A stretch of DNA of 64,000 nt from a bacterium (GTDB taxonomy: Bacteria; Patescibacteriota; Minisyncoccia; UBA6257; GWB1-50-10), in NCBI GenBank assembly GCA_002686365.1, contig NZBZ01000004.1:98752-162751 (forward strand), read 5' to 3'. Numbering within the stretch: position 1 is the stretch's first letter; every line of letters starts with the position of its first letter. Positions 9,727 through 63,527 of the stretch are shown piece after piece. The notes under the pieces were generated by a model. The model was given only the letters and a program-made list of their open reading frames with translations. It had not been told where the DNA came from and searched no databases. The position numbers and the translations under genes were made by a program.

Positions 9727-9886
9727 TCTCTTTTTCTCGTTCGTAAGTCTCCACACATTAAAATTCTTTATTCGCTCATTACGGCAATTTGCCGCCCTGT
9801 TTCGCTTTGCTCCACGGGCACCCGGCAAATTGTCTATTCGCTCATAGAATTTAAGATGTGTTTCAACACACTCACTCTGAAAAAAA
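9727..9886 (+). repeat. Interspersed repeat family A, copy 1 (~160 bp); other copies at 48329-48485 and 63338-63495
   Basis: The copies are ~95% identical and each starts 1-9 nt after a stop codon (proS, uppS, and the hypothetical gene ending at 63336). The element carries a 12-bp inverted repeat, CGGCAATTTGCCG versus CGGCAAATTGCC, and an internal ATTCGCTCAT direct repeat. No ORF is conserved across the copies. Confidence 0.7.
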
Positions 9887-9957: not shown

Positions 9958-9996
9958 CACTTCGTCCCGATTGGGGACTCGTGAGCTTTTTTATAT
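9958..9996 (+). terminator. Two-tier terminator hairpin GCTCAC-TTCG-TCCC...GGGAC-TCG-TGAGC plus T-run
   Basis: Followed by TTTTTTATAT. The equivalent hairpin at 63528-63570 has compensatory base changes in the inner stem (GTCCC/GGGAC versus TTCCG/CGGAA). Confidence 0.55.
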
Positions 9997-10037
9997 AAAA
10001 AAATACCCACCAAAGCGTGGGTGCTGGTGGGGTTGAG

Positions 10038-10385
10038 TCAGATGTGGAGGAGAATTGCTGCAGTACCGAGGAACGTGACGATGGCGCAGAAGATTGCGAG
10101 GCAGTTCATTGCTTGGGCAGTTCTCTTGCTCCAAGGTCTTCCTGCATCGTCGTCTATCTGTGCGAATATCCACACGTCCAGATTGAACAGGATGGTGCCG
10201 ATGGCGAACAAGAGTGCCGCCCCGATCCAGTTCGAGATCATGGCGTTTTCTTGTGCGCCTACCATGGCTCCTGAGAGACATATAAACGCTGTGATCAGAC
10301 TGACGAGGCCGGCAATGAAGGTTGCGTCGCGGCCACTGGTCTCGTGATTGCCACTTTTGTGTATTGCGGCAGCAGCGGCGGTCAT
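10038..10385 (-). CDS. Small membrane protein (115 aa); N-terminus paralogous to the 54-aa ORF at 10795-10959
   Basis: The N-terminus MTAAAAAIHKSGNHE... is followed by hydrophobic segments. The local GC content looks clearly higher than the genome background. Confidence 0.45.
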   Translation of the reverse strand: MTAAAAAIHKSGNHETSGRDATFIAGLVSLITAFICLSGAMVGAQENAMISNWIGAALLFAIGTILFNLDVWIFAQIDDDAGRPWSKRTAQAMNCLAIFCAIVTFLGTAAILLHI

Positions 10386-10433
10386 TGTGCGTTCCTTCTC
10401 GGTTAGGCGGCGGATGGCTTGTGTCCGTACGTA

Positions 10434-10751
10434 CTAGCCTCCGAAGATTAGGAAGTAGATGAGCCCTACGGCTCCGCAGAGCGCGTTGACGCCGAGGATC
10501 GTTGCAGCGTTGTAGAGTCTTCTGCGCATGTCGGGCTTTGGCTCGTTCTTTAGCCCTCCCATTCCTATCATCAGGATGAAAATGACACCGATGTAGAGCG
10601 TGAAGCCGGCGGAGTGATACCAGTGCCAGTTCGTGAGGCCTGGGGTTCCGCGTACGGCGAGTACGTTCGCCCAGAAGGAGAAGAATCCTGCAATGAGACC
10701 GAAGACAGTGTACGCGGAGAGCGAGAAGTTTCTTCGAAATGCGTCGGTCAT
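10434..10751 (-). CDS. Small membrane protein (105 aa)
   Basis: Three predicted TM segments (for example GLIAGFFSFWANVLAV and FTLYIGVIFILMIGMGGL). Same strand and same GC-rich block as its neighbours. Confidence 0.45.
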   Translation of the reverse strand: MTDAFRRNFSLSAYTVFGLIAGFFSFWANVLAVRGTPGLTNWHWYHSAGFTLYIGVIFILMIGMGGLKNEPKPDMRRRLYNAATILGVNALCGAVGLIYFLIFGG

Positions 10752-10794
10752 TGTCAGATCCCTTCGGGTTGCGGTGTGTGTGGGTGGTTTTGAG

Positions 10795-10959
10795 TTACGG
10801 GTTGAGGTAGATGTGGTAGAGAATTCCTGCAGTGCCTAGGATCGCGCTGCCCGCGTAGAAGGTTATGATGACTCCTGCGGTGATGTAGGTGATGAGGGCT
10901 ATGGCGCGATCGATGAGCCCATTGTTGCCACTCTTGTGTGTCGCTGCAGCAGCGGTCAT
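10795..10959 (-). CDS. Small membrane protein (54 aa), absent from the ORF track because it is under 60 aa
   Basis: Hand translation gives MTAAAATHKSGNNGLIDRAIALITYITAGVIITFYAGSAILGTAGILYHIYLNP. Its N-terminus is shared with the 115-aa ORF, and its start overlaps the upstream ORF's stop (ATGA). Confidence 0.4.
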   Translation of the reverse strand: MTAAAATHKSGNNGLIDRAIALITYITAGVIITFYAGSAILGTAGILYHIYLNP

Positions 10960-11153
10960 GGCGTGATCCTTTTAAGTGTTGTCGGACAGATGGGAACAAG
11001 TTTGAGTATTGTTATACGCAGCGCTATGGCGCCCACCATAACATCCAGTATGCTGTGAGAGTTGGCAACTCCGTATGCTGTGATCAGCAAGCTTGCGACA
11101 AAGAACAGCATTGTGAAGATGTATAGGGTGGACCACTTGACCTTTGTCTGCAT
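10956..11153 (-). CDS. Small membrane protein (65 aa), first gene of the - strand four-gene mini-operon
   Basis: MQTKVKWSTLYIFTMLFFVASLLITAYGVANSHSILDVMVGAIAL... is a hydrophobic helix. It is divergent from mreB. Confidence 0.35.
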   Translation of the reverse strand: MQTKVKWSTLYIFTMLFFVASLLITAYGVANSHSILDVMVGAIALRITILKLVPICPTTLKRITP

Positions 11154-11237
11154 CTACATGAAGTTCTTTGCCTCCAGGCCTTCAGTTTGGGTCGCTGAAA
11201 TTACTCTACATATTTTTGTTTTTAGTGTCAATTTTTA

Positions 11238-17471: not shown

Positions 17472-17879
17472 ATGAAAAAGGTTCTTGTGTTTGGTGTATT
17501 TGATGGGGTCCATGATGGGCACCTTTCTTTTTTGAAGCAGGCTCGCGAGTGCGGGGACTACTTAATTGTTGCAGTGGCTCAAGATGAGGTTATTCAGGCT
17601 TTGAAAGGAAGGGGCCCTTTAAAAGAATTAAAAATTAGAAAGCAGGAGGTGAAGGATACAAAATTTGTGGATGAGGTGATTGATGGAGATACTGATTTGG
17701 GAAGTTGGGGCGTGATTGGAAAAGTGAAGCCCAATGTTATAGCATTAGGATATGATCAAGAGGGGTTGAGGGGCGTTTTGGAAAGAGCCTTGAAGGAGAA
17801 GGGTCTAGATATTGAGATTGTGGTTATGGGTGGGTATAGGCCAGATAAGCTGCATTCTTCAATTTTGAGTCAAAAATAG
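17472..17879 (+). CDS. Cytidylyltransferase-like nucleotidyltransferase (FAD synthetase / RibL-like, HxGH motif)
   Basis: MKKVLVFGVFDGVHDGHLSFLKQARECGDYLIVAV is a Rossmann nucleotidyltransferase signature; 135 aa. Confidence 0.5.
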   Translation: MKKVLVFGVFDGVHDGHLSFLKQARECGDYLIVAVAQDEVIQALKGRGPLKELKIRKQEVKDTKFVDEVIDGDTDLGSWGVIGKVKPNVIALGYDQEGLRGVLERALKEKGLDIEIVVMGGYRPDKLHSSILSQK

Positions 17880-17882
17880 TTT

Positions 17883-19130
17883 ATGTTGGACGTTAATTTA
17901 ATTCGTAAAGAGCCGGATAAGGTTCGTGAGGGAGTAGAGAAGAAGGGAGTTGATCCAAAGCTCGTGGATGATTTTTTGGCTGTTGATGAGAAGTGGCGTG
18001 GTATTGTTGCATCTTTAGATGAGCTTCGGTCAAAGCAGAATGAGATTACTGATAAACTTTCAGCCGGTAAGAAGGATGATTTGATTGAGGAGGCAAAAAA
18101 GTTTAAGGAGAAAATTTCGAAACTTGAGGATGAATCGAAGGGGCTGGAGAATGAGCGGAATAAGATTTTGAATGATTTGCCGAACATTCCGTTTAGAGAT
18201 GTACTAGTTGGAAAAGATGAGAATGAAAATAAAGTTCTTCGAAAAGAGGGCAAGAAGCCAAAGTTTGGTTTTAAAGTAAAAGATTCGTTTTCTCTTGGCG
18301 AGGATTTGGGAATTATTGATACGAAAAAGGCATCTCAAGTTGCAGGTACGCGATTTGGATATCTGAAGGGAGATGCTGTGATGCTTCAGTTTGCTCTTAT
18401 GCGTCTTGGGTTTGAAATGCTTATGAAGGATGGGTTTGTTCCAGTTCTTCCTCCTGTGATGATTAAGCCGGAGGTTTTCGCGGGAATGGGGCGTCTTGCA
18501 GCAGATCAGGAGCAGGAGCGGTATCATTTTTCAAAAGATGATTTGTATCTTGTAGGAAGCGCAGAGCATACGCTCGGTCCTTTGCATATGAAAGACACTT
18601 TGGATTCAAAAGATCTTCCGAGGCGGTATGTTGGGTACTCTACTTGCTTTCGTCGTGAGGCAGGGTCTTATGGAAAGGATACAAAGGGAATTTTTCGAGT
18701 GCATCAGTTTGATAAACTTGAGATGTTTTCGTTTGTAGATCCGGAGAAGTCGGGAGAGGAGCATGAGTTTATGCTTTCTTTGCAGGAGAAGCTGATGCAG
18801 AAGCTGGAGCTGCCGTATCAGGTGGTTGATATTTGTACAGGAGATATGGGATGGACTGATGCAAAGCAGTACGATATTGAGGTGTGGTTTCCTAGTGAGG
18901 ACAGGTATCGTGAGACACATTCCTGCTCAGATACAACTGATTTTCAGGCGCGGGGAATTGGTGCAAAGTATCGAAAGGATGGTAAGACGGAATTTTTGCA
19001 CATGTTAAACGCTACTGTGTTTTCACAGCGTCCGCTTCTTGCGATTTTGGAAAACTATCAGAAGAAAGATGGGACTATTGAAGTTCCGAAAGTTTTGCAG
19101 AAGGACATGGGGAAGAAGGTTATTGGATAG
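17883..19130 (+). CDS. serS: Seryl-tRNA synthetase
   Basis: N-terminal coiled-coil (MLDVNLIRKEPDKVREGVEKKG...) and a class II core (...FRREAGSYGKDTKGIFRVHQFDKLE...). Confidence 0.85.
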   Translation: MLDVNLIRKEPDKVREGVEKKGVDPKLVDDFLAVDEKWRGIVASLDELRSKQNEITDKLSAGKKDDLIEEAKKFKEKISKLEDESKGLENERNKILNDLPNIPFRDVLVGKDENENKVLRKEGKKPKFGFKVKDSFSLGEDLGIIDTKKASQVAGTRFGYLKGDAVMLQFALMRLGFEMLMKDGFVPVLPPVMIKPEVFAGMGRLAADQEQERYHFSKDDLYLVGSAEHTLGPLHMKDTLDSKDLPRRYVGYSTCFRREAGSYGKDTKGIFRVHQFDKLEMFSFVDPEKSGEEHEFMLSLQEKLMQKLELPYQVVDICTGDMGWTDAKQYDIEVWFPSEDRYRETHSCSDTTDFQARGIGAKYRKDGKTEFLHMLNATVFSQRPLLAILENYQKKDGTIEVPKVLQKDMGKKVIG

Positions 19131-26449: not shown

Positions 26450-26517
26450 TGTATTGCGGGGGTGTTTAGTAGGTATGGTTCTTGGCAGTTTTTTGTTATT
26501 TTACTATTTTACGATTT

Positions 26518-26557
26518 ACGATGCAGTTATGTGACGGTCGTGCTATAATTGCATCGT
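26518..26557 (+). promoter_or_regulatory. Hairpin element E (arms ACGATGCA/TGCATCGT, inner ACGGTCGTG) overlapping a TATAAT (26544-26549) and the GTG start of the downstream gene
   Basis: It forms a direct repeat pair with 27085-27124 (~85% identical). The -10-like TATAAT is 6 nt before the start codon, so the transcript is likely leaderless. Confidence 0.4.
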
Positions 26558-27056
26558 GGGTGTTGCAGATGACATTTTAACAATACTTTTTAGCTATTCC
26601 GCTGGGTATAAGCGTCTGCGTCAATTGACGTATGGGGGCTCTCCTTATCAATCGTCAGATTCTCGAAGGAAGATTAGAGATGAAACTCTTCGTTCTACAC
26701 TTTCTCGAATGAGGAAGAATAAGCTTGTGTCCCGCAAGGGGGATGAATGGGTTATCACCGCGAAAGGCAAGGCTTTTTATCGTCGTCGTAGGGAAAAGCG
26801 GAAACTTGAAGAGATTTCTGATGAATTGCGAAGTAGAAAGAAGTCTGTGATTATTGCGTTTGATGTTCCAGAAGAAAGGCGTGTTATTCGCGCATGGTTG
26901 CGGAGAGAATTAGTATTTTTAGGATTTGAGCCTATTCAGAAGAGTGTTTGGTTTGGTCCGGGTCCTTTGCCCGAGATATTTATTCAAGAATTGGGTGATA
27001 GAGATCTTTTGGGCTGTTTAAAATTTTTTAGGGCGACTGAGGATGATGTTGTTTAA
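26556..27056 (+). CDS. Winged-helix + Cas2/PaaX-like domain protein (166 aa), paralog 1
   Basis: The N-terminal wHTH region is ...TLSRMRKNKLVSRKGDEWVITAKGKAF.... The C-terminus VIIAFDVPEERRVIRAWLRRELVFLGFEPIQKSVWFGP matches the Cas2 N-terminal strand pattern (hhhYDI...RR...L...G.R.Q.SVF) and the PaaX middle domain. 57% identity-level paralog at 50061-50546. Confidence 0.5.
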   Translation: MGVADDILTILFSYSAGYKRLRQLTYGGSPYQSSDSRRKIRDETLRSTLSRMRKNKLVSRKGDEWVITAKGKAFYRRRREKRKLEEISDELRSRKKSVIIAFDVPEERRVIRAWLRRELVFLGFEPIQKSVWFGPGPLPEIFIQELGDRDLLGCLKFFRATEDDVV

Positions 27057-27084
27057 ATATTGTTTAGTATTGTTTAGTGATTTT

Positions 27085-27124
27085 ACGATGCACTTTTAGC
27101 ACGACCGTGCTATAGGTGCATCGT
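27085..27124 (+). repeat. Hairpin element E, downstream copy (ACGATGCAC...ACGACCGTG...GTGCATCGT)
   Basis: A 9-bp outer stem plus a 6-bp inner stem. Direct repeat of 26518-26557. Confidence 0.4.
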
Positions 27125-27699
27125 TGGTTGGTTTTTGATTGATAGATTAATGCTTGAGGGTTTTGGGGATTTGCAGATTCGCGGATTTGCGGATTTATCT
27201 CATTGTTTGTATATTGTTTGTACGTTCTTTGACCTATGGAATGGAGAAAATGCGCTATGTCGTTAAGAAAAGGCGTCAGGCGGCAGGTTCGCAAGAGGCG
27301 CGCTTCTAAGGCGCGCAGAGAGGCTCTGGTTAATGAGCAGTTCTTAAGTCTAGTCGGTCGAATTCCAGGAGAAGGAGAATTGGATCGTCTTGCTGCTCAG
27401 ATATAATTCGGAGATGCTCAGCCCTTGTCTGAGGCATTGGGCTTTGTGGGCGCCTATGTGGTGGCAACTGATGATCGTGATGTCTGGGTAAGTGTCCGCT
27501 TTAATAGCGCCACCAGGCAGATCTTCGGTGTGTCGCGGCCGCCCTCTAATGAGCATCTTGACAGCTTGCACAATCTCAGTGCCTGTGGGGAGTCTTCTGG
27601 TTCTGATTGGGTTTCGTCGTAGACGTCCCGCATGCCTTTATGGATGCGGGACGTTGTCATGTTTAGATAATGCTTATAACTTGAGAAGTTTGGATTTTT

Positions 27700-36099: not shown

Positions 36100-36150
36100 A
36101 TAATTCTTGGTTTAGCATTCTCCTTCTGTATAATATGGTATACTGGTTTT

Positions 36151-37404
36151 ATGGCAAATCAGCAGTTGCTTGACTATATTAGGGGGCAGAAACAGCAGGG
36201 TGTAGATCAGCAGAGTCTTCGAGGCTCGCTTCTTGCAAGTGGTTGGGATACTGCTCAGGTTGATGAGGCATTCCGTCTTTTAGATTCTCCTGTTCAACAG
36301 CCCGTTCAGCCAGTTCCTCCAGAGAGCAGTGCGCCCGCACAGACATTTTCTGCTCAGCCATCGCGAAAGCTTATTCGAATCTTGCTGATAAGCATTTTTG
36401 TGATTGCGGTCTTAGTGATTGGCGCAGGAGCGTTTGGCTATTTGCCTGGTTTTCAGTCACTTGCACCTGAGGAAGTTATCCAGAAAATGTTTTCTCGTTT
36501 GTCTGATATTCGGTCTTTAGAGTATTCGGGAGAGGTGGAGGCTTTATTTGATACTGGGGGAGTGCCTATTGGCGGGGCTGGTTTTTCTTCGCTTACTCGA
36601 TCATTTTCAGGAGGGGTAGGTATTTTTTCCATTAGCTTTGACGGGGCTTTTGATTATCGTGATTCTGAAGATCCTTTGTATTCTTTATCTTTGCGAGTGG
36701 AAGATGATTCATTGTTGGAGAAGAGTGTTGTTGCTGATGTGGAGGCGAGGGTTCTTGATGGGATTGTATACATTAAGCTTAATCGTGTGCCGGAATTAGA
36801 CATTTTTGATATTAGTTTTCTTCAGGGTCAGTGGGTGAAGATTGATCCTGAAGTTCTTAGAAAGCAGTTCGGATTGAATGCGGAGGAATATTTTGCCAAC
36901 ATACAGGAGCAGCAGGGAGTATCTTTGCGTCAAGCCGAGGACATTAGAGAAGCTGTTTCGCGTGTTCAGATCCTTGATGTGACTGATGTGCTGCCGGATG
37001 AAAAGATTGGGGGAGTAGATACGCATCATTATGCGTTTACTGTTCGTAAGGAGGGCTTGAGAGAGTTGGTTATTGATCTGTATTATAATACGCAGGGCCA
37101 TTCATTAGATGAGAGAGAACTTGCTGAGTTTGATAGAAACTTGGAATTAGCAGAGTTTCCTAATGGTGAGATTTGGATTGGCAAGAAAGATTCATTCCCT
37201 TATAAGCTTGTTTTGAGTTCTGTTGCTGAAGATTCTTATGGATATGGGTTTACTGGATCGTTTTCTACTGTTTTGCTGTTTAAGAGCTTTAATCAGCCTG
37301 TTCGTGTGGATGTTCCTGCTTCGGCTATTCCGCTGGAGGAAATTTTTGGCGCATTACTTGGGGGCGTACAGGGTTCCTCAAGTGGTACATTTTTTCCTGA
37401 ATAA
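36151..37404 (+). CDS. Hypothetical membrane-anchored protein (N-terminal soluble domain, Pro-rich linker, TM segment, large ectodomain)
   Basis: PVQQPVQPVPPESSAPAQ, then the TM segment LIRILLISIFVIAVLVIGAGAF. No catalytic motif seen. Confidence 0.45.
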   Translation: MANQQLLDYIRGQKQQGVDQQSLRGSLLASGWDTAQVDEAFRLLDSPVQQPVQPVPPESSAPAQTFSAQPSRKLIRILLISIFVIAVLVIGAGAFGYLPGFQSLAPEEVIQKMFSRLSDIRSLEYSGEVEALFDTGGVPIGGAGFSSLTRSFSGGVGIFSISFDGAFDYRDSEDPLYSLSLRVEDDSLLEKSVVADVEARVLDGIVYIKLNRVPELDIFDISFLQGQWVKIDPEVLRKQFGLNAEEYFANIQEQQGVSLRQAEDIREAVSRVQILDVTDVLPDEKIGGVDTHHYAFTVRKEGLRELVIDLYYNTQGHSLDERELAEFDRNLELAEFPNGEIWIGKKDSFPYKLVLSSVAEDSYGYGFTGSFSTVLLFKSFNQPVRVDVPASAIPLEEIFGALLGGVQGSSSGTFFPE

Positions 37405-47543: not shown

Positions 47544-47607
47544 TAGATATTATGCAAGACTGCCCATAGCTGGGCAGTCTTGTGTTTTATAGTGGTATAC
47601 TAAGTAG

Positions 47608-48327
47608 TTGAAATGGATAAATAATATGGAAAATGTTCCACAACATGTTGCTGCTATCCCTGATGGGAATAGGCGGTGGGCAAAGAAGCGGGGCCTTCCC
47701 GGTACTGCTGGCCATACAGAAGGGGTAAAGCGTTTTTATGATGTAATGGAGGAGGCGTTTGATAAGGGCGTCAAGTACTTTACGTTTTGGGGCGCATCAG
47801 AGAGTAATCTTACCAATCGTACAAAGGTAGAGGTGAAATTTTTGATGGATATTTTTCAAAATGAGATTTTGCGGCATTTTGATTCAAAGAAGTTTAAGGA
47901 GAATAAGATTCGGGTTCGGGTTCGCGGCAAGGGTGTGGAAATGATTGATAATCCAAAGCTTACTGAGACTGTGAAAAAGCTTGAGGAGGAGTCTGCGGAG
48001 TTTACAGATAAGAACTTAACAATTCTTTTTGGATATAGCGGGACTACAGAGATACGTGAGGCGATTTCTAAAATAAAGGAAGAGGATTTGGAAGTTACTG
48101 ATGAGAATATAAAGAAGTCTTTGTGGACTGGGGATTTGCCGCCAGTAGATTTTGTGATAAGAACTGGAATAGAAGGAGATCCTCATGTTTCTGCTGGATT
48201 TATGATGTGGCAGACAGCAGAGAGTCAGCTTTACTTTACAGAAATGTGCTGGCCTGATTTTGGAAAGAAGGAGCTTGCAAAGGTTTTGGAAGAGTATGGG
48301 GCAAGGGAGAGGAGGTTGGGGAAATAA
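47608..48327 (+). CDS. uppS: Undecaprenyl-diphosphate synthase
   Basis: HVAAIPDGNRRWAKKRGLP... is the canonical cis-prenyltransferase motif. Confidence 0.85.
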   Translation: MKWINNMENVPQHVAAIPDGNRRWAKKRGLPGTAGHTEGVKRFYDVMEEAFDKGVKYFTFWGASESNLTNRTKVEVKFLMDIFQNEILRHFDSKKFKENKIRVRVRGKGVEMIDNPKLTETVKKLEEESAEFTDKNLTILFGYSGTTEIREAISKIKEEDLEVTDENIKKSLWTGDLPPVDFVIRTGIEGDPHVSAGFMMWQTAESQLYFTEMCWPDFGKKELAKVLEEYGARERRLGK

Positions 48328-48328
48328 A

Positions 48329-48485
48329 ATCCTTTTTCTCGTTCGTAAGTCTCCACACATTAAAATTCTTTATTTGCTCATTACGGCAATTTGCCGCCCT
48401 GTTTCGCTTTGCTCCACGGGCACCCGGCAAATTGCCTATTCGCTCATAGAATTTAAGATGTGTTTCAACACACTCACTCTGAAAA
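48329..48485 (+). repeat. Interspersed repeat family A, copy 2
   Basis: Starts 2 nt after the uppS TAA; ~95% identical to copies 1 and 3. Confidence 0.7.
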
Positions 48486-48619
48486 ATAATTTTATTTTTC
48501 TATGGGAAGTCGTTCTAGGTGCTTTTTACAAAGTAACTTTTTTAAGTCGTCTCAAGAAAGAAAAGATGAATTGTGAGTAATAGAATTTTTCCTCATTCTG
48601 TAGTGGGATGGAGGAGGTC

Positions 48620-48697: not shown

Positions 48698-49765
48698 ATG
48701 GAGCTTTTATCCTTTTTAGACCGCATTCCATATGCGGATTATGTAATTTTAGGGAATAGTGTGCGGGATTATGTTGTTGCTTTGGCAGTGCTTGCTGCAG
48801 CGCTTATTGTGTTTCGAATATTTCAGCAGGTTCTTATACAGCGTTTTAAGAAGTTTGCAAAGCAAACAAAGACAGATATTGATGATATGTTTTTGCAGAT
48901 TGTGGAGAGCTTGAGACCTCCTTTCTATGTATTTCTCGCGTTTTATGTTGGGATTCGATTTTTGGCAGTTGATGTAACAGTTCAGAAGGTTATTGATTCT
49001 CTTCTTGTTATTTGGGTTGTGTATCAGGTGGTTTTGGCAGTTCAGATTTTGATTGATTATGGAATAAAGAAGGGTGTTCGTGGAGGGGAGGATAAGGGTA
49101 CAAAGGCGGCGCTTGGGGCAATGAGCAGAATTGTTAAGTGGGTGCTTTGGGCAGTTGCTATACTTTTTGTACTTTCTAACTTGGGGGTGAATGTGAGTTC
49201 TGTTCTTGCAGGGCTTGGTATTGGCGGAATCGCGATTGCGCTTGCTGCTCAGAATATCTTGGGAGATTTGTTTAGTTCGTTTGCAATTTATTTTGATAAG
49301 CCGTTTATGGTTGGGGACTTTATTGTATTGGGTAAGCATAAGGGTACGGTTGAGAAGATTGGCATAAAGACTACGCGACTTCGGTCTTTAAGCGGTGAGG
49401 AGATTGTTATTTCTAATAAGGAGCTTACCTCTACTAGAATTCAGAACTTTCGGAGAATGGAGAAACGGAGGATTGCTTTTAAGATTGGAGTTATATATGA
49501 GACTTCAACGGAGAAATTGAAGAAAATACCAAAGATTGTAAAGGAGATTTTTAATAAAGTTGAAACAGCAGAGTTAAACCGAGTACATTTCGCGCAATTT
49601 GATGATTTTGCTTTAACGTTTGAGATTGTGTATTATGTGACCTCGCGAGAGTTTGAAATATATATGGATACACAGCAGGATGTGAATTTTGCTCTGAAAG
49701 AACGGTTTGAAAAGGAGGGTATTGAATTTGCCTATCCAACGCAGATGGTATATGTAAAGAAATGA
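48698..49765 (+). CDS. Mechanosensitive ion channel, MscS family
   Basis: N-terminal TM helices and an MscS beta domain (...GDFIVLGKHKGTVEKIGIKTTRLRSLSGEEIVISN...). Confidence 0.75.
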   Translation: MELLSFLDRIPYADYVILGNSVRDYVVALAVLAAALIVFRIFQQVLIQRFKKFAKQTKTDIDDMFLQIVESLRPPFYVFLAFYVGIRFLAVDVTVQKVIDSLLVIWVVYQVVLAVQILIDYGIKKGVRGGEDKGTKAALGAMSRIVKWVLWAVAILFVLSNLGVNVSSVLAGLGIGGIAIALAAQNILGDLFSSFAIYFDKPFMVGDFIVLGKHKGTVEKIGIKTTRLRSLSGEEIVISNKELTSTRIQNFRRMEKRRIAFKIGVIYETSTEKLKKIPKIVKEIFNKVETAELNRVHFAQFDDFALTFEIVYYVTSREFEIYMDTQQDVNFALKERFEKEGIEFAYPTQMVYVKK

Positions 49766-49784
49766 TACGGGCAAAGAAATGGTG

Positions 49785-49855
49785 CGGGCCGTAGTATACC
49801 GGTAGTACGCCTGTTTTGGGAACAGGTAGACCGGGTTCGATTCCCGGCGGCCCGA
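49785..49855 (+). tRNA. tRNA-Pro (anticodon UGG)
   Basis: Acceptor stem CGGGCCG/CGGCCCG. D-arm GTAT-ACCGGTA-GTAC. Anticodon stem-loop CCTGT-TTTGGGA-ACAGG. T-arm CCGGG-TTCGATT-CCCGG. Discriminator A. Confidence 0.8.
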
Positions 49856-49865
49856 CTAAGGTATC

Positions 49866-49894
49866 AAAAGGAGCTCTCATGAGCTCCTTTTGAG
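49866..49894 (+). terminator. Terminator hairpin AAGGAGCTC-TCAT-GAGCTCCTT plus TTTT
   Basis: 9-bp stem followed by a U-run, directly after tRNA-Pro. Confidence 0.5.
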
Positions 49895-50019
49895 ACTCTA
49901 TGTGGTCGGGAATCGAAGGGAACCCCGACATTTATCGTCGGGGTGGGGGAGCGGGATTCCCGGCCTCCTATTGAGCGACGTGAGATTCCCCGGCCCGACA
50001 GCGATTTTTATAGATTTTT

Positions 50020-50054
50020 ATAACATTTCCTACGATCGTAGGAAATGTTATAAT
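50020..50054 (+). promoter_or_regulatory. 32-bp perfect palindrome ATAACATTTCCTACGA|TCGTAGGAAATGTTAT overlapping a TATAAT (50049-50054) 6 nt before the start codon: candidate autoregulated, leaderless promoter-operator
   Basis: Perfect 16-bp arms with the same ACGATCGT core as hairpins 26518, 27085 and 50556. Confidence 0.45.
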
Positions 50055-50060
50055 TTGTGT

Positions 50061-50546
50061 ATGGCTTTTAATAATGATTTGCTTACAGTTCTTTTTCGCA
50101 ACACGATGAGCTATAAACTGCTTAGGGAGTTTGCGCATAAACGTCGTCAAAAAGAAGTAAAGGATTCGGTTTTGCGAACAACTCTCTATCGTTTACGAAA
50201 ACAGGGCTTGGTTGTTCAAAAAGATGGAAAGTGGAGCATAACAAATCTAGGTAAGGACTTTTTGAAACGTAAGGAAAAGGCAAAGATTTGGGAGCATGGT
50301 TTGTACGACAAGTCTTTACGTGAGCGTGACAAGAATATGATTATTGCTTTTGATATTCCAGAATCTGAAAGGAGAAAACGGGATTGGTTAAGAGTTGAGC
50401 TGCGTCTTCTTGGCTTTGATCCTATTCAGAAGAGTGTTTGGTTTGGTCCATATCCGTTGCCTCGAGAGTTTATTCAGTCTTTGGGTAAATTGGAGCTTAT
50501 TACGTACTTGAAGTTTTTTCGTGCTCGGAAAGATGAGGTTGTTTGA
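50061..50546 (+). CDS. Winged-helix + Cas2/PaaX-like domain protein (161 aa), paralog 2
   Basis: MAFNNDLLTVLF...TLYRLRKQGLVVQKDGKWSITNLGKDF...MIIAFDIPESERRKRDWLRVELRLLGFDPIQKSVWFGPYPLP. It aligns end to end with 26556-27056. The ATG at 50061 is preferred; the track's 49890 start runs through repeat sequence. Confidence 0.5.
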   Translation: MAFNNDLLTVLFRNTMSYKLLREFAHKRRQKEVKDSVLRTTLYRLRKQGLVVQKDGKWSITNLGKDFLKRKEKAKIWEHGLYDKSLRERDKNMIIAFDIPESERRKRDWLRVELRLLGFDPIQKSVWFGPYPLPREFIQSLGKLELITYLKFFRARKDEVV

Positions 50547-50555
50547 CTTTTTGTA

Positions 50556-50583
50556 AACAAACCTTACGATCGTGAGGTTTGTT
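50556..50583 (+). repeat. Hairpin element E (AACAAACCT-TACGATCGTG-AGGTTTGTT) downstream of paralog 2
   Basis: Direct repeat of the upstream palindrome, with the ACGATCGT core. Confidence 0.4.
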
Positions 50584-50621
50584 ATATTTTTTTGAGTGTG
50601 ATTTTTTGGTATACTAAAAGC

Positions 50622-51005
50622 ATGAATAAAAAAGATTCGAAGACAATACTTTTAGTCGAGGATGATCAGATTTTATTGAAGACTGTTACGGAGGAGCTAG
50701 AAGAGCATGGGTATAATGTCCTTTAGGCTATAGATGGTGAGGTTGGTTTGAAGTCCGCATTTGAAGCTCATCCGGATTTGGTGATGCTTGATGTAAAGCT
50801 TCCTGGTATGGATGGAATGGAGGTGATGAAAAATATCCGTGAGGATTCGTGGGGGAAGAATGTTCCTCTTATTATTTTTACTGTTATTCATCCTGATGAT
50901 GAGATGGTAAAAATGATAGAGAAGTATGAGCCTTCGCATTATCTTGTAAAGTCTGAGTGGAGTTTGGAGAAGGTTGTTGAAAAGGTAAAGGATGTTTTGA
51001 AATAA
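50622..51005 (+). pseudogene. CheY-like single-domain response regulator (REC) interrupted by an in-frame TAG at about 50724-50726
   Basis: MNKKDSKTILLVEDDQILLKTVTEELEEHGYNVL*AIDGEVGLKSAFEAHPDLVMLDVKLPGMDGMEV... The stop falls between V-L and A-x-DG of the conserved receiver core. The track reports only the C-terminal 85 aa (50748-51005, TTG start). The minus-strand track ORF 50697-50939 is consistent with a single TAG and no frameshift. By eye I could not exclude an additional 1-nt indel near 50700. Confidence 0.45.
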
Positions 51006-51103: not shown

Positions 51104-51319
51104 GTGAAATTGCGTATAGTGAAAAAGCGTAAGAAGCAGACTCGAGAAATGAATCAGATACTTCGTAAGGCGTTTGATTCGCTAGATAAGGGTGTTCGTG
51201 AGCAAATTAAAGTATTAGAGAAAGCTAAATCAAAACGTAGACTTACTAAAGAAGAGGAAGAGGTAATGAGGGGGCTTAGAAAGGAGGTGCGCGACGCAAA
51301 AAAGTCAGCAAAGAAATAG
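51104..51319 (+). CDS. Small basic hypothetical protein (71 aa)
   Basis: Lys/Arg/Glu-rich helical sequence with no motif; weak support. Confidence 0.25.
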   Translation: MKLRIVKKRKKQTREMNQILRKAFDSLDKGVREQIKVLEKAKSKRRLTKEEEEVMRGLRKEVRDAKKSAKK

Positions 51320-61608: not shown

Positions 61609-63336
61609 ATGGCGAAAGCAGGTTCAACAAAGAAGCTTTTTTTGGAGGCAGAGGATGATATAGATGAAGCATTGGAGAGGATTTCCGCGTTTGAAGGGAA
61701 GAATGTTGTTTTGAATATTCCAAAGGGTTCTGTGCTCGGAGGTTCTGTTAAGAACTTCCGTTTTTTGCGTAAGAAGACGGATGAGCTTGAGAAGAATTTG
61801 GTTATTGAGTCTGTTGATGATCATGTGCTTGAGCTTGCAGAGGTTGCTGATATTGATGCTGTAAATCCCGTGTTTCGTACAAAAGGCAAGGCAGTTGTTG
61901 ATATTGTTCCGGGCGGTTCTGGAGAGTCTCGTTCAGGGCGCAGTAAAAAGACTGAGAAAATATCTCTTCAGCAAGTAAAAGAAGAGGAGGTTGAAGAGGA
62001 AGAGGGTGAAGAAGAGCCTGACGCAGAGCCAGAGGAGAAAGCAGAGGATGTGGTTCAGGATGAGATTCCGCAAAAGGTAGTTCATTTTTGGGAGAGAGAT
62101 CGTGCAGCAAAGGCGCCTCAGCCCGCGAAGATGGGTTTTCTTTCGTTTTTGCAGAGAGGTAAGAAGTCGAAGGGCGGCATTCAGCTTCCTTCTGCGCGTT
62201 TTGTCCGGTTTGCTGTAGTTTTTCTTGTGATTATTGCTTTAGGTTGGGGACTTGCGACAATTCTTCCTAAGGCAACTATTACACTTGCGCTTAAGCGATA
62301 CCCAGTATCTTTTGTTGAGACGGTGAAGGTTGATACAAAGACTCCTCTGCCAAGCTTTGCCGGAGAGACGGTCTTTTTACCCGGAGAGCTTCTTACTGCA
62401 GTAAAAAATCTTGAGATGAGTTTTCCTGCTACTGGAGAGGATGAGGTAGAGCGGAAAGCAACAGGGAAGATTAAAATTTTTAATGAGTTTAGTTCAAAAT
62501 CTCAGGCTTTGGTTGCGCGTACTAGATTTGAGACGCCGGATGGGCTTGTATACCGATTGTTTGAGCAGGTCACTGTGCCTGGGGCAGATGTTGTAGAAGG
62601 GGAGATAGAGGCATCATCTATTGAGGTTGAGGTATATGCTGATGAAGCAGGAGAGGAGTATAACATTGGGCCGGTTCCGAAGTTTACTATTCCCGGATTT
62701 AAGGGAGGACCTCGGTACGATGGATTTTATGCCGCGTCCGTCGGGTCCATGAAGGGAGGATTTGTAGGAGTTCAGAGAGTTCCAACAGATGCGGACTTAG
62801 AGGTGGCTACAGAGACAATTACGGACAGCTTGCTTGATTCTCTTGAGGGAGAGCTTGCTATTTTAATGAGTGACAGCTTTAAAGTTTTTGATGACACAAC
62901 ATTGTTTCAGATAGTTCGGGAGGAGGTTTATCCGCCTTCCCCCGGAGAGGAGATGTTTAGCGTATTTGTTGAGGGGCAGCTTCAGCAGTTTGTGTTTCGG
63001 GAGGATGATTTGGAGGAGGCTCTTGTTGGCCGCGCTAAGGAGAGTTTAACAGAGGATGTGAGTTTTAATGTTGATGATTTTTCCGTGGAGTTTACAGACC
63101 TTTCAGTTGATTTGTCAGCTGAACGTTTACAGTTTGGAGTTGAGGGAGAGGCTGTGTTTATCGCGGACATTGATTCTTCTGGGCTTACAGCAGAGCTTTT
63201 AGGTAAGAGTTCTGAAGATGTGAAAAAGGAGATTTTTAAACTTCCTGGGCTTGATAGGGCACGTGTGTCGCTTTGGCCATTCTGGGTAAAGAAGGTTCCT
63301 GGGAAAGAAGGGAAGGTGACGATTGAGGTAGAATAA
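61609..63336 (+). CDS. Hypothetical membrane protein with a poly-Glu acidic segment
   Basis: EEEVEEEEGEEEPDAEPEEKAED, then the TM segment FVRFAVVFLVIIALGWGLATIL, then a large C-terminal domain. Confidence 0.45.
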   Translation: MAKAGSTKKLFLEAEDDIDEALERISAFEGKNVVLNIPKGSVLGGSVKNFRFLRKKTDELEKNLVIESVDDHVLELAEVADIDAVNPVFRTKGKAVVDIVPGGSGESRSGRSKKTEKISLQQVKEEEVEEEEGEEEPDAEPEEKAEDVVQDEIPQKVVHFWERDRAAKAPQPAKMGFLSFLQRGKKSKGGIQLPSARFVRFAVVFLVIIALGWGLATILPKATITLALKRYPVSFVETVKVDTKTPLPSFAGETVFLPGELLTAVKNLEMSFPATGEDEVERKATGKIKIFNEFSSKSQALVARTRFETPDGLVYRLFEQVTVPGADVVEGEIEASSIEVEVYADEAGEEYNIGPVPKFTIPGFKGGPRYDGFYAASVGSMKGGFVGVQRVPTDADLEVATETITDSLLDSLEGELAILMSDSFKVFDDTTLFQIVREEVYPPSPGEEMFSVFVEGQLQQFVFREDDLEEALVGRAKESLTEDVSFNVDDFSVEFTDLSVDLSAERLQFGVEGEAVFIADIDSSGLTAELLGKSSEDVKKEIFKLPGLDRARVSLWPFWVKKVPGKEGKVTIEVE

Positions 63337-63337
63337 A

Positions 63338-63495
63338 CTCCTTTTTCTCGTTCGTAAGTCTCCACACATTAAAATTCTTTATTCACTCATTACGGCAATT
63401 TGCCGCCCTGTTTCGCTTTGCTTCACGGGCACCCGGCAAATTGCCTATTCGCTCATAGAATTTAAGATGTGCTCCAACACACTCACTCTGAAAAA
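63338..63495 (+). repeat. Interspersed repeat family A, copy 3
   Basis: Starts 2 nt after the TAA at 63334-63336. Confidence 0.7.
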
Positions 63496-63527
63496 GGAGT
63501 TTATTCTTATGGGTTTATGGGAGGTCT

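What the first reader, a model, noticed from the sequence alone, without database searches (positions are those of the whole stretch)
50622..51005. CheY-like receiver gene with an in-frame TAG inside the conserved core
Reading from the ATG at 50622 gives MNKKDSKTILLVEDDQILLKTVTEELEEHGYNVL-TAG-AIDGEVGLKSAFEAHPDLVMLDVKLPGMDGMEV..., a textbook REC domain interrupted only by an amber codon (about 50724-50726). An extended -10 (TGGTATACT, 50607-50615) precedes it. TAG terminates several other genes in the window (proS, lemA, the 58077 gene), so genome-wide reassignment is unlikely. The options are a recent pseudogene, a sequencing or assembly error, or programmed read-through or recoding.
Basis: seen in the sequence. 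Interest (0 to 1): 0.55.

Follow-up and report, generated by a model that had tools for sequence, protein, structure and literature searches.

The report
Receiver gene killed by real amber mutation
A small signalling (CheY-like receiver) gene of an uncultured marine Patescibacteria bacterium carries a genuine premature TAG stop at codon 35, which most likely makes it a very young pseudogene rather than a case of recoding, so it is ordinary.

Summary
ATG 50622 to TAA 51005 reads as a complete 127-codon receiver (REC) domain (Pfam PF00072, E=1e-20, whole profile). It is broken only by TAG at 50724-50726.

The TAG is not an assembly error. The same base is present, in otherwise identical DNA, in assemblies of two different Tara Oceans runs, in a third ENA assembly of unknown read origin, and in the public MAG. 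No intact allele exists among about 5.8 billion public protein clusters, GTDB genomes or JGI metagenomes.

TAG is a normal terminator here: 19 of 52 long ORFs end with it, several at the natural C-terminus. No tRNA(CUA), read-through context or downstream RNA structure was found. The nearest relatives (44-45% identity) have Val, Glu, Ser or Thr at this variable surface position (CheY E35).

The promoter (extended -10 placed 6 nt before the ATG, a leaderless design shared with intact genes), the codon bias and all catalytic residues are intact, so the lesion is recent. No histidine kinase lies in the 64 kb. A second possible nonsense variant (CAA>TAA) sits in the next small ORF.

Verdict: a recent loss-of-function allele of an orphan response regulator. 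Low interest. Read-through is unsupported but not strictly excluded.

The parts
50556..50583 (+). 28-nt palindrome AACAAACCTTACGATCGTGAGGTTTGTT followed by a T-run. It lies between the stop of the PaaX-like gene and the REC promoter. It is either a terminator of the upstream gene or an operator-like site, and it is related to the palindrome at 50018-50053.
50607..50615 (+). Extended -10 box TGGTATACT, 6 nt upstream of the ATG (leaderless design, no Shine-Dalgarno sequence).
   Evidence: The identical box and spacing occur at 36151 and uppS 47608. The pattern TGNTATAMT-N6-ATG occurs 3 times against 0.03 expected.
50622..50726 (+). N-terminal fragment of the REC gene (34 codons: beta1 with the acidic pair E13-D14-D15, alpha1, beta2), ending at the premature TAG.
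50724..50726 (+). Premature amber codon. It aligns with CheY E35, the variable residue at the end of beta2 just before a nearly invariant Ala.
50727..51005 (+). Remainder of the REC reading frame (92 codons plus TAA). It holds the phospho-acceptor Asp (MLDVKLPGMDG), Thr (IIFTV), the switch Tyr and Lys (YLVK). Public annotations call it as 73-, 85- or 91-aa 'proteins' from internal ATG, TTG or ATA starts.
50061..50546 (+). Upstream neighbour: a PaaX_M / winged-helix protein (161 aa from ATG 50061). Its own extended -10 (TGTTATAAT) lies inside a perfect 36-nt palindrome at 50018-50053.
51104..51319 (+). Downstream 71-codon Lys/Glu-rich ORF of unknown status. Codon 34 is CAA in the window (C at 51203) and TAA in contigs L002 and L003.

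Best explanation
The locus is a single-domain (CheY-like) response-regulator gene of a marine Patescibacteria population that a single-base nonsense mutation at codon 35 has recently inactivated. Transcription probably still starts at the leaderless promoter. Translation then ends after 34 residues, before the phospho-acceptor Asp, the Thr and the Lys, so no working receiver domain is made. The allele is the only one seen in public data, so it is fixed or dominant in the sampled population. The gene has had no time to decay further. Shown: the TAG is real, TAG is a normal stop in this genome, the rest of the gene and its promoter are intact, relatives have sense codons, and no intact allele is on record. 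Inferred: loss of function, recency, and relaxed selection on an orphan regulator with no kinase nearby.
For: The TAG occurs in identical sequence context in L001 (run ERR594345), L003 (run ERR594290), L002 (ERZ5402418) and the window, which matches the NCBI MAG contig. The P0001 cluster holds only truncated calls of 85, 91 and 73 aa from NCBI, ENA and the Tara catalogue, and no 127-aa form. The next best homologue in about 5.8 billion clusters is 44% identical. GTDB genomes and JGI metagenomes hold nothing closer than 43-45%, and a DNA pattern allowing any codon at the site found nothing. Stop usage is TAA 25, TAG 19, TGA 8. The TAG-terminated lemA, proS and glycerate-kinase-like genes end at the ends of their Pfam profiles. 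Only tRNA-Ser(GGA) and tRNA-Pro(UGG) are present in the window and flanks, and Rfam finds nothing else. RNA downstream of the TAG folds no better than shuffles (z=+0.42). Homologues have V, E, S, T or I at the site, and the query keeps D14, D57, P61, D64, G65 and K110. Coding bias on both sides of the TAG equals that of intact genes. The promoter and start design is identical to that of intact genes. No HisKA or HATPase_c protein is found in 64 kb. A second nonsense variant lies in the adjacent ORF.
Against: There is no second lesion (no frameshift, no lost catalytic residue, no damaged promoter). 'Dead' therefore rests on the stop alone, and a functional leaky gene would look the same. All copies are identical, so dN/dS cannot be measured. 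Only 64 kb of the genome, plus a few kb of flanking contigs, could be screened for a suppressor tRNA or a kinase. The stop lies at a surface position that tolerates many residues, so any read-through product would probably fold. The assemblies may all come from neighbouring Tara samples, and L002 and L003 may derive from the same reads, so 'fixed' means fixed in the population sampled.
Confidence: 0.8

Rival explanations
1. The gene is still functional at a low level. Near-cognate or suppressor-mediated read-through of the TAG makes small amounts of full-length receiver, either by chance leakiness or as a regulatory device.
For: Everything except the stop is intact: the promoter, all catalytic residues, the codon bias and a 74-bit Pfam score. 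The stop sits at a variable, exposed position where relatives have V, E, S, T or I, so any inserted residue would be tolerated. The TAG allele is the only one seen, and it occurs with both variants at 51203.
Against: TAG ends 19 of 52 genes, several at their natural C-termini. No tRNA(CUA) is present in the DNA available. There is no downstream structure. The context CUU-UAG-G is not a known leaky context (general knowledge, not tested here). No relative carries the stop. No literature was found on TAG read-through in this phylum.
Confidence: 0.08
2. An N-terminally truncated protein is made from the region after the TAG by re-initiation at an internal start (ATA 50730, TTG 50748 or the in-frame ATG that gives MLDVKLPG...), and it has some function. 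This is how public annotations present the locus.
For: Gene callers output products of 91, 85 and 73 aa. The genome does not use Shine-Dalgarno sequences, so the lack of one is no argument against re-initiation.
Against: Such products lack beta1, alpha1 and beta2 and the Mg2+-binding acidic pair (E13-D14-D15), which are part of the invariant REC core. A Rossmann-like alpha/beta fold missing its central first strand is unlikely to fold (inference). The three callers disagree on the start, as expected for an artefact.
Confidence: 0.04
3. The TAG is a sequencing, assembly or consensus artefact, and the cells carry a sense codon.
For: The source is a metagenome-assembled genome. L002 has only 2.3x coverage. 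L002 and L003 have nearly the same ends, so they may derive from the same reads.
Against: The same base is found in assemblies of at least two separate runs (ERR594345, ERR594290), made with different assemblers, and in the NCBI MAG contig. The truncated 73-aa call in the Tara gene catalogue suggests the same stop there (inference). No assembly anywhere gives an intact 127-aa product. The site is not in a homopolymer or repeat.
Confidence: 0.03
4. TAG is decoded genome-wide or gene-specifically as an amino acid (pyrrolysine or code reassignment).
For: None beyond the in-frame TAG itself.
Against: TAG is the second most used terminator and ends genes at their natural C-termini. It is the only in-frame stop of this kind in about 55 genes. 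No pylT-like tRNA is present in the window.
Confidence: 0.01

Closest known systems
Single-domain CheY-like response regulators (Pfam PF00072), stand-alone receiver proteins
   Same: It matches the full-length REC profile and has the acidic pair, the phospho-acceptor Asp, the Thr, the aromatic switch residue and the Lys. At about 125 aa with no output domain, it resembles its nearest relatives P0002-P0007, L009 and L023.
   Different: The reading frame is interrupted at codon 35. No histidine kinase lies within 64 kb, whereas P0002 sits directly after two kinases.
Young nonsense pseudogenes / loss-of-function alleles in bacterial populations
   Same: A single premature stop in an otherwise undecayed gene. 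Automatic annotation hides it as a shorter 'hypothetical protein' (MAF79759.1). A second possible nonsense variant lies next door.
   Different: Nothing is unusual. The only notable point is that no intact allele is on record, so the ancestral codon is unknown.
REC genes of distant Patescibacteria relatives (L009, isolate PMV_2_maxbin.003, 45% identity; L023, 45%; P0002, 44%)
   Same: They share the subfamily motifs (ED.WGK, S/D-WSLEKVVEKVK C-terminus). In L009 the REC gene is 25 nt upstream of an mscS homologue (46% identical to the window's mscS), and the window's REC lies 857 nt downstream of mscS.
   Different: Those genes are uninterrupted, with Ser (TCT), Thr or Val at the site. Gene order differs: the window has tRNA-Pro and a PaaX-like gene between mscS and REC.
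Programmed stop-codon read-through or recoding (pyrrolysine, suppressor-tRNA-based TAG recoding in phages)
   Same: Only the presence of an in-frame TAG.
   Different: The stop is not conserved in relatives. No suppressor tRNA was found. TAG is not depleted as a terminator. There is no stimulatory RNA element.

Membership tests
Response regulator receiver domain (PF00072, CheY-like) | Profile match above the curated threshold over the whole domain | tested here: met
   74.2 bits against a cut-off of 30.2, profile 1-110 of 111, residues 9-122, with X at the stop
Response regulator receiver domain (PF00072, CheY-like) | Catalytic and switch residues (CheY D12/D13, D57, T87, Y106, K109) | tested here: met
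   E13-D14-D15, D57 in MLDVKLPGMDG, T in IIFTV, and Y and K in YLVK. D14, D57 and K110 are invariant columns in alignment A2.
Response regulator receiver domain (PF00072, CheY-like) | Uninterrupted reading frame encoding the whole domain | tested here: not met
   TAG at 50724-50726, present in every assembly
Response regulator receiver domain (PF00072, CheY-like) | Partner histidine kinase encoded nearby | tested here: not met
   No HisKA or HATPase_c hit in any of about 55 ORFs of the window.
Nonsense pseudogene | The lesion is real in the DNA, not an artefact | tested here: met
   Same base in L001, L002, L003 and the window, from at least two sequencing runs and different assemblers
Nonsense pseudogene | The truncated product lacks essential parts | tested here: met
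   The 34-aa product ends before D57, T87 and K109
Nonsense pseudogene | Relatives have a sense codon at the site | tested here: met
   V, E, S, T or I in P0002-P0007, P0010, P0015, L009 and L023. These relatives are only 29-45% identical.
Nonsense pseudogene | Further decay (frameshifts, lost motifs, relaxed dN/dS) | tested here: not met
   No other lesion, and coding bias is intact. dN/dS cannot be tested because all copies are identical. This points to a recent lesion.
Programmed read-through / stop-codon recoding | The stop codon is conserved at the site in orthologues | tested here: not met
   No relative with TAG. No relative closer than 45% exists in the protein clusters, GTDB or JGI metagenomes.
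Programmed read-through / stop-codon recoding | Cognate suppressor tRNA(CUA) or pylT | tested here: inconclusive
   None in the 64-kb window or in the fetched flanking contigs, the longest of which (L021) extends 7.3 kb beyond the window end. The whole genome could not be searched.
Programmed read-through / stop-codon recoding | Stimulatory downstream RNA structure or known leaky context | tested here: not met
   MFE -29 kcal/mol against a shuffle mean of -30.4, z=+0.42. The context is CUU UAG GCU.
Programmed read-through / stop-codon recoding | TAG avoided as an ordinary terminator in the genome | tested here: not met
   19 of 52 long ORFs end in TAG

The most novel reading that the evidence does not exclude
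The amber codon is kept on purpose. In this Shine-Dalgarno-free organism with leaderless mRNAs, a TAG early in the mRNA is read through at a low, condition-dependent rate, for example when RF1 activity drops. That would keep an orphan receiver protein at very low dosage, making it a translational throttle rather than a dead gene.
Probability: 0.04. Interest if true: 0.6.

Novelty: already known. Interest (0 to 1): 0.12.

Why it matters
It matters little beyond annotation hygiene. The public record (MAF79759.1) and gene catalogues present the 3' remnant as 73-91-aa 'hypothetical proteins' with a Response_reg domain, when it should be flagged as a disrupted gene. It is a small, clean example of ongoing gene loss (signal transduction) in a reduced Patescibacteria genome. 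The lesion is seen in at least two sequencing runs, which shows that in-frame stops in MAGs can be real. It would only become interesting if read-level or proteomic data showed that the TAG is decoded.

Tried and rejected
1. Genome-wide TAG reassignment is rejected by stop usage and by the natural C-termini of TAG-terminated genes.

2. Suppressor tRNA: ARAGORN on the window and on flanking contigs, plus Rfam, found only tRNA-Ser(GGA) and tRNA-Pro(UGG).

3. Read-through-stimulating RNA: the fold of 50700-50830 is no better than shuffles.

4. Search for an intact or a TAG-bearing allele elsewhere:
- The protein search gave only truncated calls and then 44% homologues.
- A DNA pattern with NNN at the codon found 0 hits in JGI metagenomes.
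- Protein-guided scans of GTDB genomes and JGI metagenomes found nothing closer than 43-45%.
- An exact look-up of NCBI's 91-aa product found nothing on record.
- A look-up of the 34-aa N-terminal piece found only L003.

5. Strain variants reached through neighbouring genes did not help. L020 (mscS 91% nt identity) loses synteny right after mscS and has no REC. L021 and L022 start downstream of the locus.

6. P0002 as positional orthologue is rejected: it sits after two histidine kinases in a different context. L009 is the better candidate because of its mscS adjacency.

7. A perfect TATAAT at 50712-50717, 6 nt before the TAG, was considered as an internal leaderless promoter. It is rejected as chance (codons Tyr-Asn), because no start codon follows at the right place.

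8. Literature searches for TAG read-through or recoding in Patescibacteria/CPR found nothing relevant.

Full report
**Observation.** From ATG 50622 the frame reads MNKKDSKTILLVEDDQILLKTVTEELEEHGYNVL, then TAG (50724-50726), then AIDGEVGLKSAFEAHPDLVMLDVKLPGMDG...KDVLK and TAA (51003-51005). With X in place of the stop, the 127-aa product matches Pfam Response_reg from profile position 1 to 110 of 111 (74.2 bits, curated cut-off 30.2, E=1.2e-20). Aligned with its nearest homologues and E. coli CheY, it keeps the acidic pair (E13-D14-D15), the phospho-acceptor Asp57, the Thr of IIFTV, and the aromatic switch residue and Lys of YLVK. The stop falls on the variable residue at the end of beta2 (CheY E35), just before a nearly invariant Ala.

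**Is TAG a stop in this organism?** Yes.
- Of 52 non-overlapping long ORFs in the window, 25 end in TAA, 19 in TAG and 8 in TGA.
- TAG-terminated genes end where their families end: LemA at profile 149 of 149, ProRS at the end of the anticodon-binding domain, and the DUF4147/MOFRL protein at MOFRL 106 of 106.
- A codon-bias scan of all frames found only two stops with coding-like sequence on both sides. One is the REC TAG. The other (17877) is the normal boundary between a cytidylyltransferase-like gene and serS.
- The window holds only tRNA-Ser(GGA) and tRNA-Pro(UGG) and no other Rfam family. The flanking contigs that could be fetched add no tRNA.

**Is the TAG real?** Yes, as far as assemblies can show.
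- The 85-aa ORF downstream of the stop is a cluster of three truncated gene calls (85, 91 and 73 aa) from NCBI, ENA and the Tara Oceans gene catalogue.
- The contigs that encode it include L001 (29 kb, run ERR594345), L003 (run ERR594290) and L002 (a SPAdes-style assembly, ERZ5402418, coverage 2.3). NCBI contigs of 137 kb and 197 kb also carry it. The 197-kb contig carries proteins identical to those of the window (MAF79757-MAF79769, 'bacterium', locus tags CL629_016xx).
- In a four-way alignment the REC region is identical in all contigs, TAG included.
- L002 and L003 differ from the window by a single C>T at 51203. The TAG is therefore seen with both variants at that site.
- Two caveats apply. 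L002 and L003 end at almost the same positions and may derive from the same low-coverage reads. All samples may also come from neighbouring stations.
- No 127-aa intact form exists in the roughly 5.8 billion-cluster protein collection; the next hit is 44% identical. A DNA pattern allowing any codon at the site found nothing in JGI metagenomes. Protein-guided scans of GTDB species genomes and JGI metagenomes found nothing closer than 43-45%.
- The stop is thus specific to this nearly clonal population. Only 4 variable positions were found in about 17 kb of window sequence compared across contigs.

**What relatives show.**
- The closest full-length homologues have a sense codon at the site: Val (P0002, P0005, P0006), Glu (P0003, P0004, P0007, CheY), Ser (L009, codon TCT) and Thr (L023).
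- L009, from a distant Patescibacteria-like MAG, is the best candidate orthologue. It shares the ED.WGK and WSLEKVVEKVK motifs. Its REC gene lies 25 nt upstream of an mscS homologue that is 46% identical to the window's mscS (48698..49765), and the window's mscS ends 857 nt upstream of the REC ATG.
- P0002 sits behind two histidine kinases in a different context.
- A closer relative of the window's organism, L020 (mscS 91% nt identity), loses synteny immediately after mscS and has no REC there.

**State of the gene.**
- Apart from the stop, nothing is damaged.
- The start has the same design as intact genes of this genome, which lacks Shine-Dalgarno sequences: an extended -10 box exactly 6 nt before the start codon, implying leaderless mRNAs. 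Examples are TGGTATACT-N6-ATG at REC, TGGTATACT-N6-ATG at 36151, TGGTATACT-N6-TTG at uppS 47608, TGTTATAAT-N6-ATG at the PaaX-like gene 50061, and TGCTATAAT-N6-GTG at its paralogue 26556.
- The strict pattern occurs 3 times against 0.03 expected by chance.
- Codon bias downstream of the TAG is as strong as in intact genes.
- RNA downstream of the stop has no unusual structure (z=+0.42). The context CUU-UAG-G is not one I know to be leaky (own knowledge, not tested).

**Context.** The window is a typical reduced Patescibacteria chromosome segment. It has a strong positive GC skew, and nearly all genes are on the + strand. It encodes glycosyltransferases, ProRS, MreBC, PBP2, GreA, class II aaRS, RelA/SpoT, GroES/EL, LemA, HtpX, a PEP-utilising enzyme, a MacB-type ABC system, uppS, mscS, enolase, primase, RpoD and AlaRS. 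No histidine kinase is present in the 64 kb. The small ORF after REC (51104..51319) carries CAA>TAA in L002 and L003. If that variant is real, it is a second nonsense change within 500 bp and fits relaxed selection on this block. It is a C>T change on the + strand, the direction that the G>C, T>A skew of this strand suggests (inference).

**Explanation.** The best-supported reading is a young nonsense pseudogene, or equivalently a loss-of-function allele that is fixed or dominant in the sampled population, of an orphan single-domain response regulator (confidence about 0.8).
- The 34-residue product cannot form a receiver domain.
- The 73-91-aa 'proteins' in public annotation are artefacts of gene callers that restart at internal ATG, TTG or even ATA codons.
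- Functional low-level read-through cannot be excluded, because an intact-looking gene with a tolerated stop position is what both hypotheses predict. Nothing positive supports it, however (about 0.08).
- Assembly error (about 0.03) and recoding (about 0.01) are contradicted by the data above.

**Novelty and verdict.** This is a real but ordinary feature: a known kind of lesion in a known kind of gene. Its practical value is as an annotation correction and as a small example of gene loss in a streamlined genome. Interest is 0.12.

Noticed in passing
window 9730-9884, 48323-48506, 63332-63513; L020 305-477: A repeat of about 170 nt (93-98% identical between copies) sits directly after the stop codons of proS, uppS and the 61609..63336 gene. 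It folds as one long hairpin (58 pairs). A related species shows compensatory changes. The outermost stem is built from copy-specific flanks that differ between copies but stay complementary. It could be a MITE-like element inserted into terminator hairpins, or a structured 3' RNA. There is no Rfam match.
   Followed up: partly
window-wide; e.g. 26541-26558, 36136-36153, 47593-47610, 50046-50063, 50607-50624: The genome has essentially no Shine-Dalgarno sequences. Several genes have an extended -10 box exactly 6 nt before the start codon, which implies leaderless mRNAs. TGNTATAMT-N6-ATG occurs 3 times against 0.03 expected.
   Followed up: partly
window 50018-50053 and 50556-50583; also 26510-26556 and 27083-27127: Two related palindromes (core CCT(T)ACGATCGT(G/A)AGG) flank the PaaX_M/winged-helix gene 50061..50546. 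One overlaps that gene's own -10 box and the other lies just upstream of the REC promoter. The paralogous PaaX-like gene 26556..27056 likewise has its promoter region repeated after its stop. These may be operator sites of these regulators.
   Followed up: partly
window 51203 (ORF 51104..51319): A C>T variant in contigs L002 and L003 turns codon 34 (CAA) of the 71-codon Lys/Glu-rich ORF into TAA. Coverage is low (2.3x), so it may be an error. If real, either the ORF is dispensable or it is not a gene.
   Followed up: partly
L009 2732-4241 versus window 48698-51005: In the closest REC homologue's genome, the REC gene is followed 25 nt later by an mscS homologue. In the window, mscS and REC are 857 nt apart, with tRNA-Pro and the PaaX-like gene between them. 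This may be a conserved REC-MscS linkage in Patescibacteria.
   Followed up: partly
L020 2422-4338 versus window 49761 onward: A related population (mscS 91% nt identity) has a B12-binding radical-SAM gene directly after mscS, where the window has tRNA-Pro, the PaaX-like gene, REC and the 71-aa ORF. This block next to the tRNA gene is therefore variable between relatives.
   Followed up: no
window 9990-11160, minus strand: A cluster of four small hydrophobic ORFs lies on the otherwise almost gene-free minus strand, in a segment of raised G+C (0.50 against about 0.42). None of the ORFs scanned has a Pfam match. It may be an acquired cassette.
   Followed up: no
window 50730-51005: The NCBI record annotates the 3' remnant as a 91-aa hypothetical protein (MAF79759.1, CL629_01635) that would have to start at ATA 50730. 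ENA and Tara callers give 85 aa (TTG start) and 73 aa (ATG start). None flags the disruption.
   Followed up: yes
window 1-64000: GC skew is strongly positive and uniform (+0.06 to +0.41 per 2 kb, never negative). T exceeds A in 28 of the 32 2-kb windows, and nearly all genes lie on the + strand. The whole window therefore lies on one leading-strand replichore with marked strand-asymmetric mutation pressure.
   Followed up: no
window 17877-17885: The TAG of the cytidylyltransferase-like gene (17472..17879) is followed after 3 nt by the in-frame ATG of serS (17883..19130). This looks like an in-frame stop within one ORF, but it is the boundary between two separate genes.
   Followed up: yes
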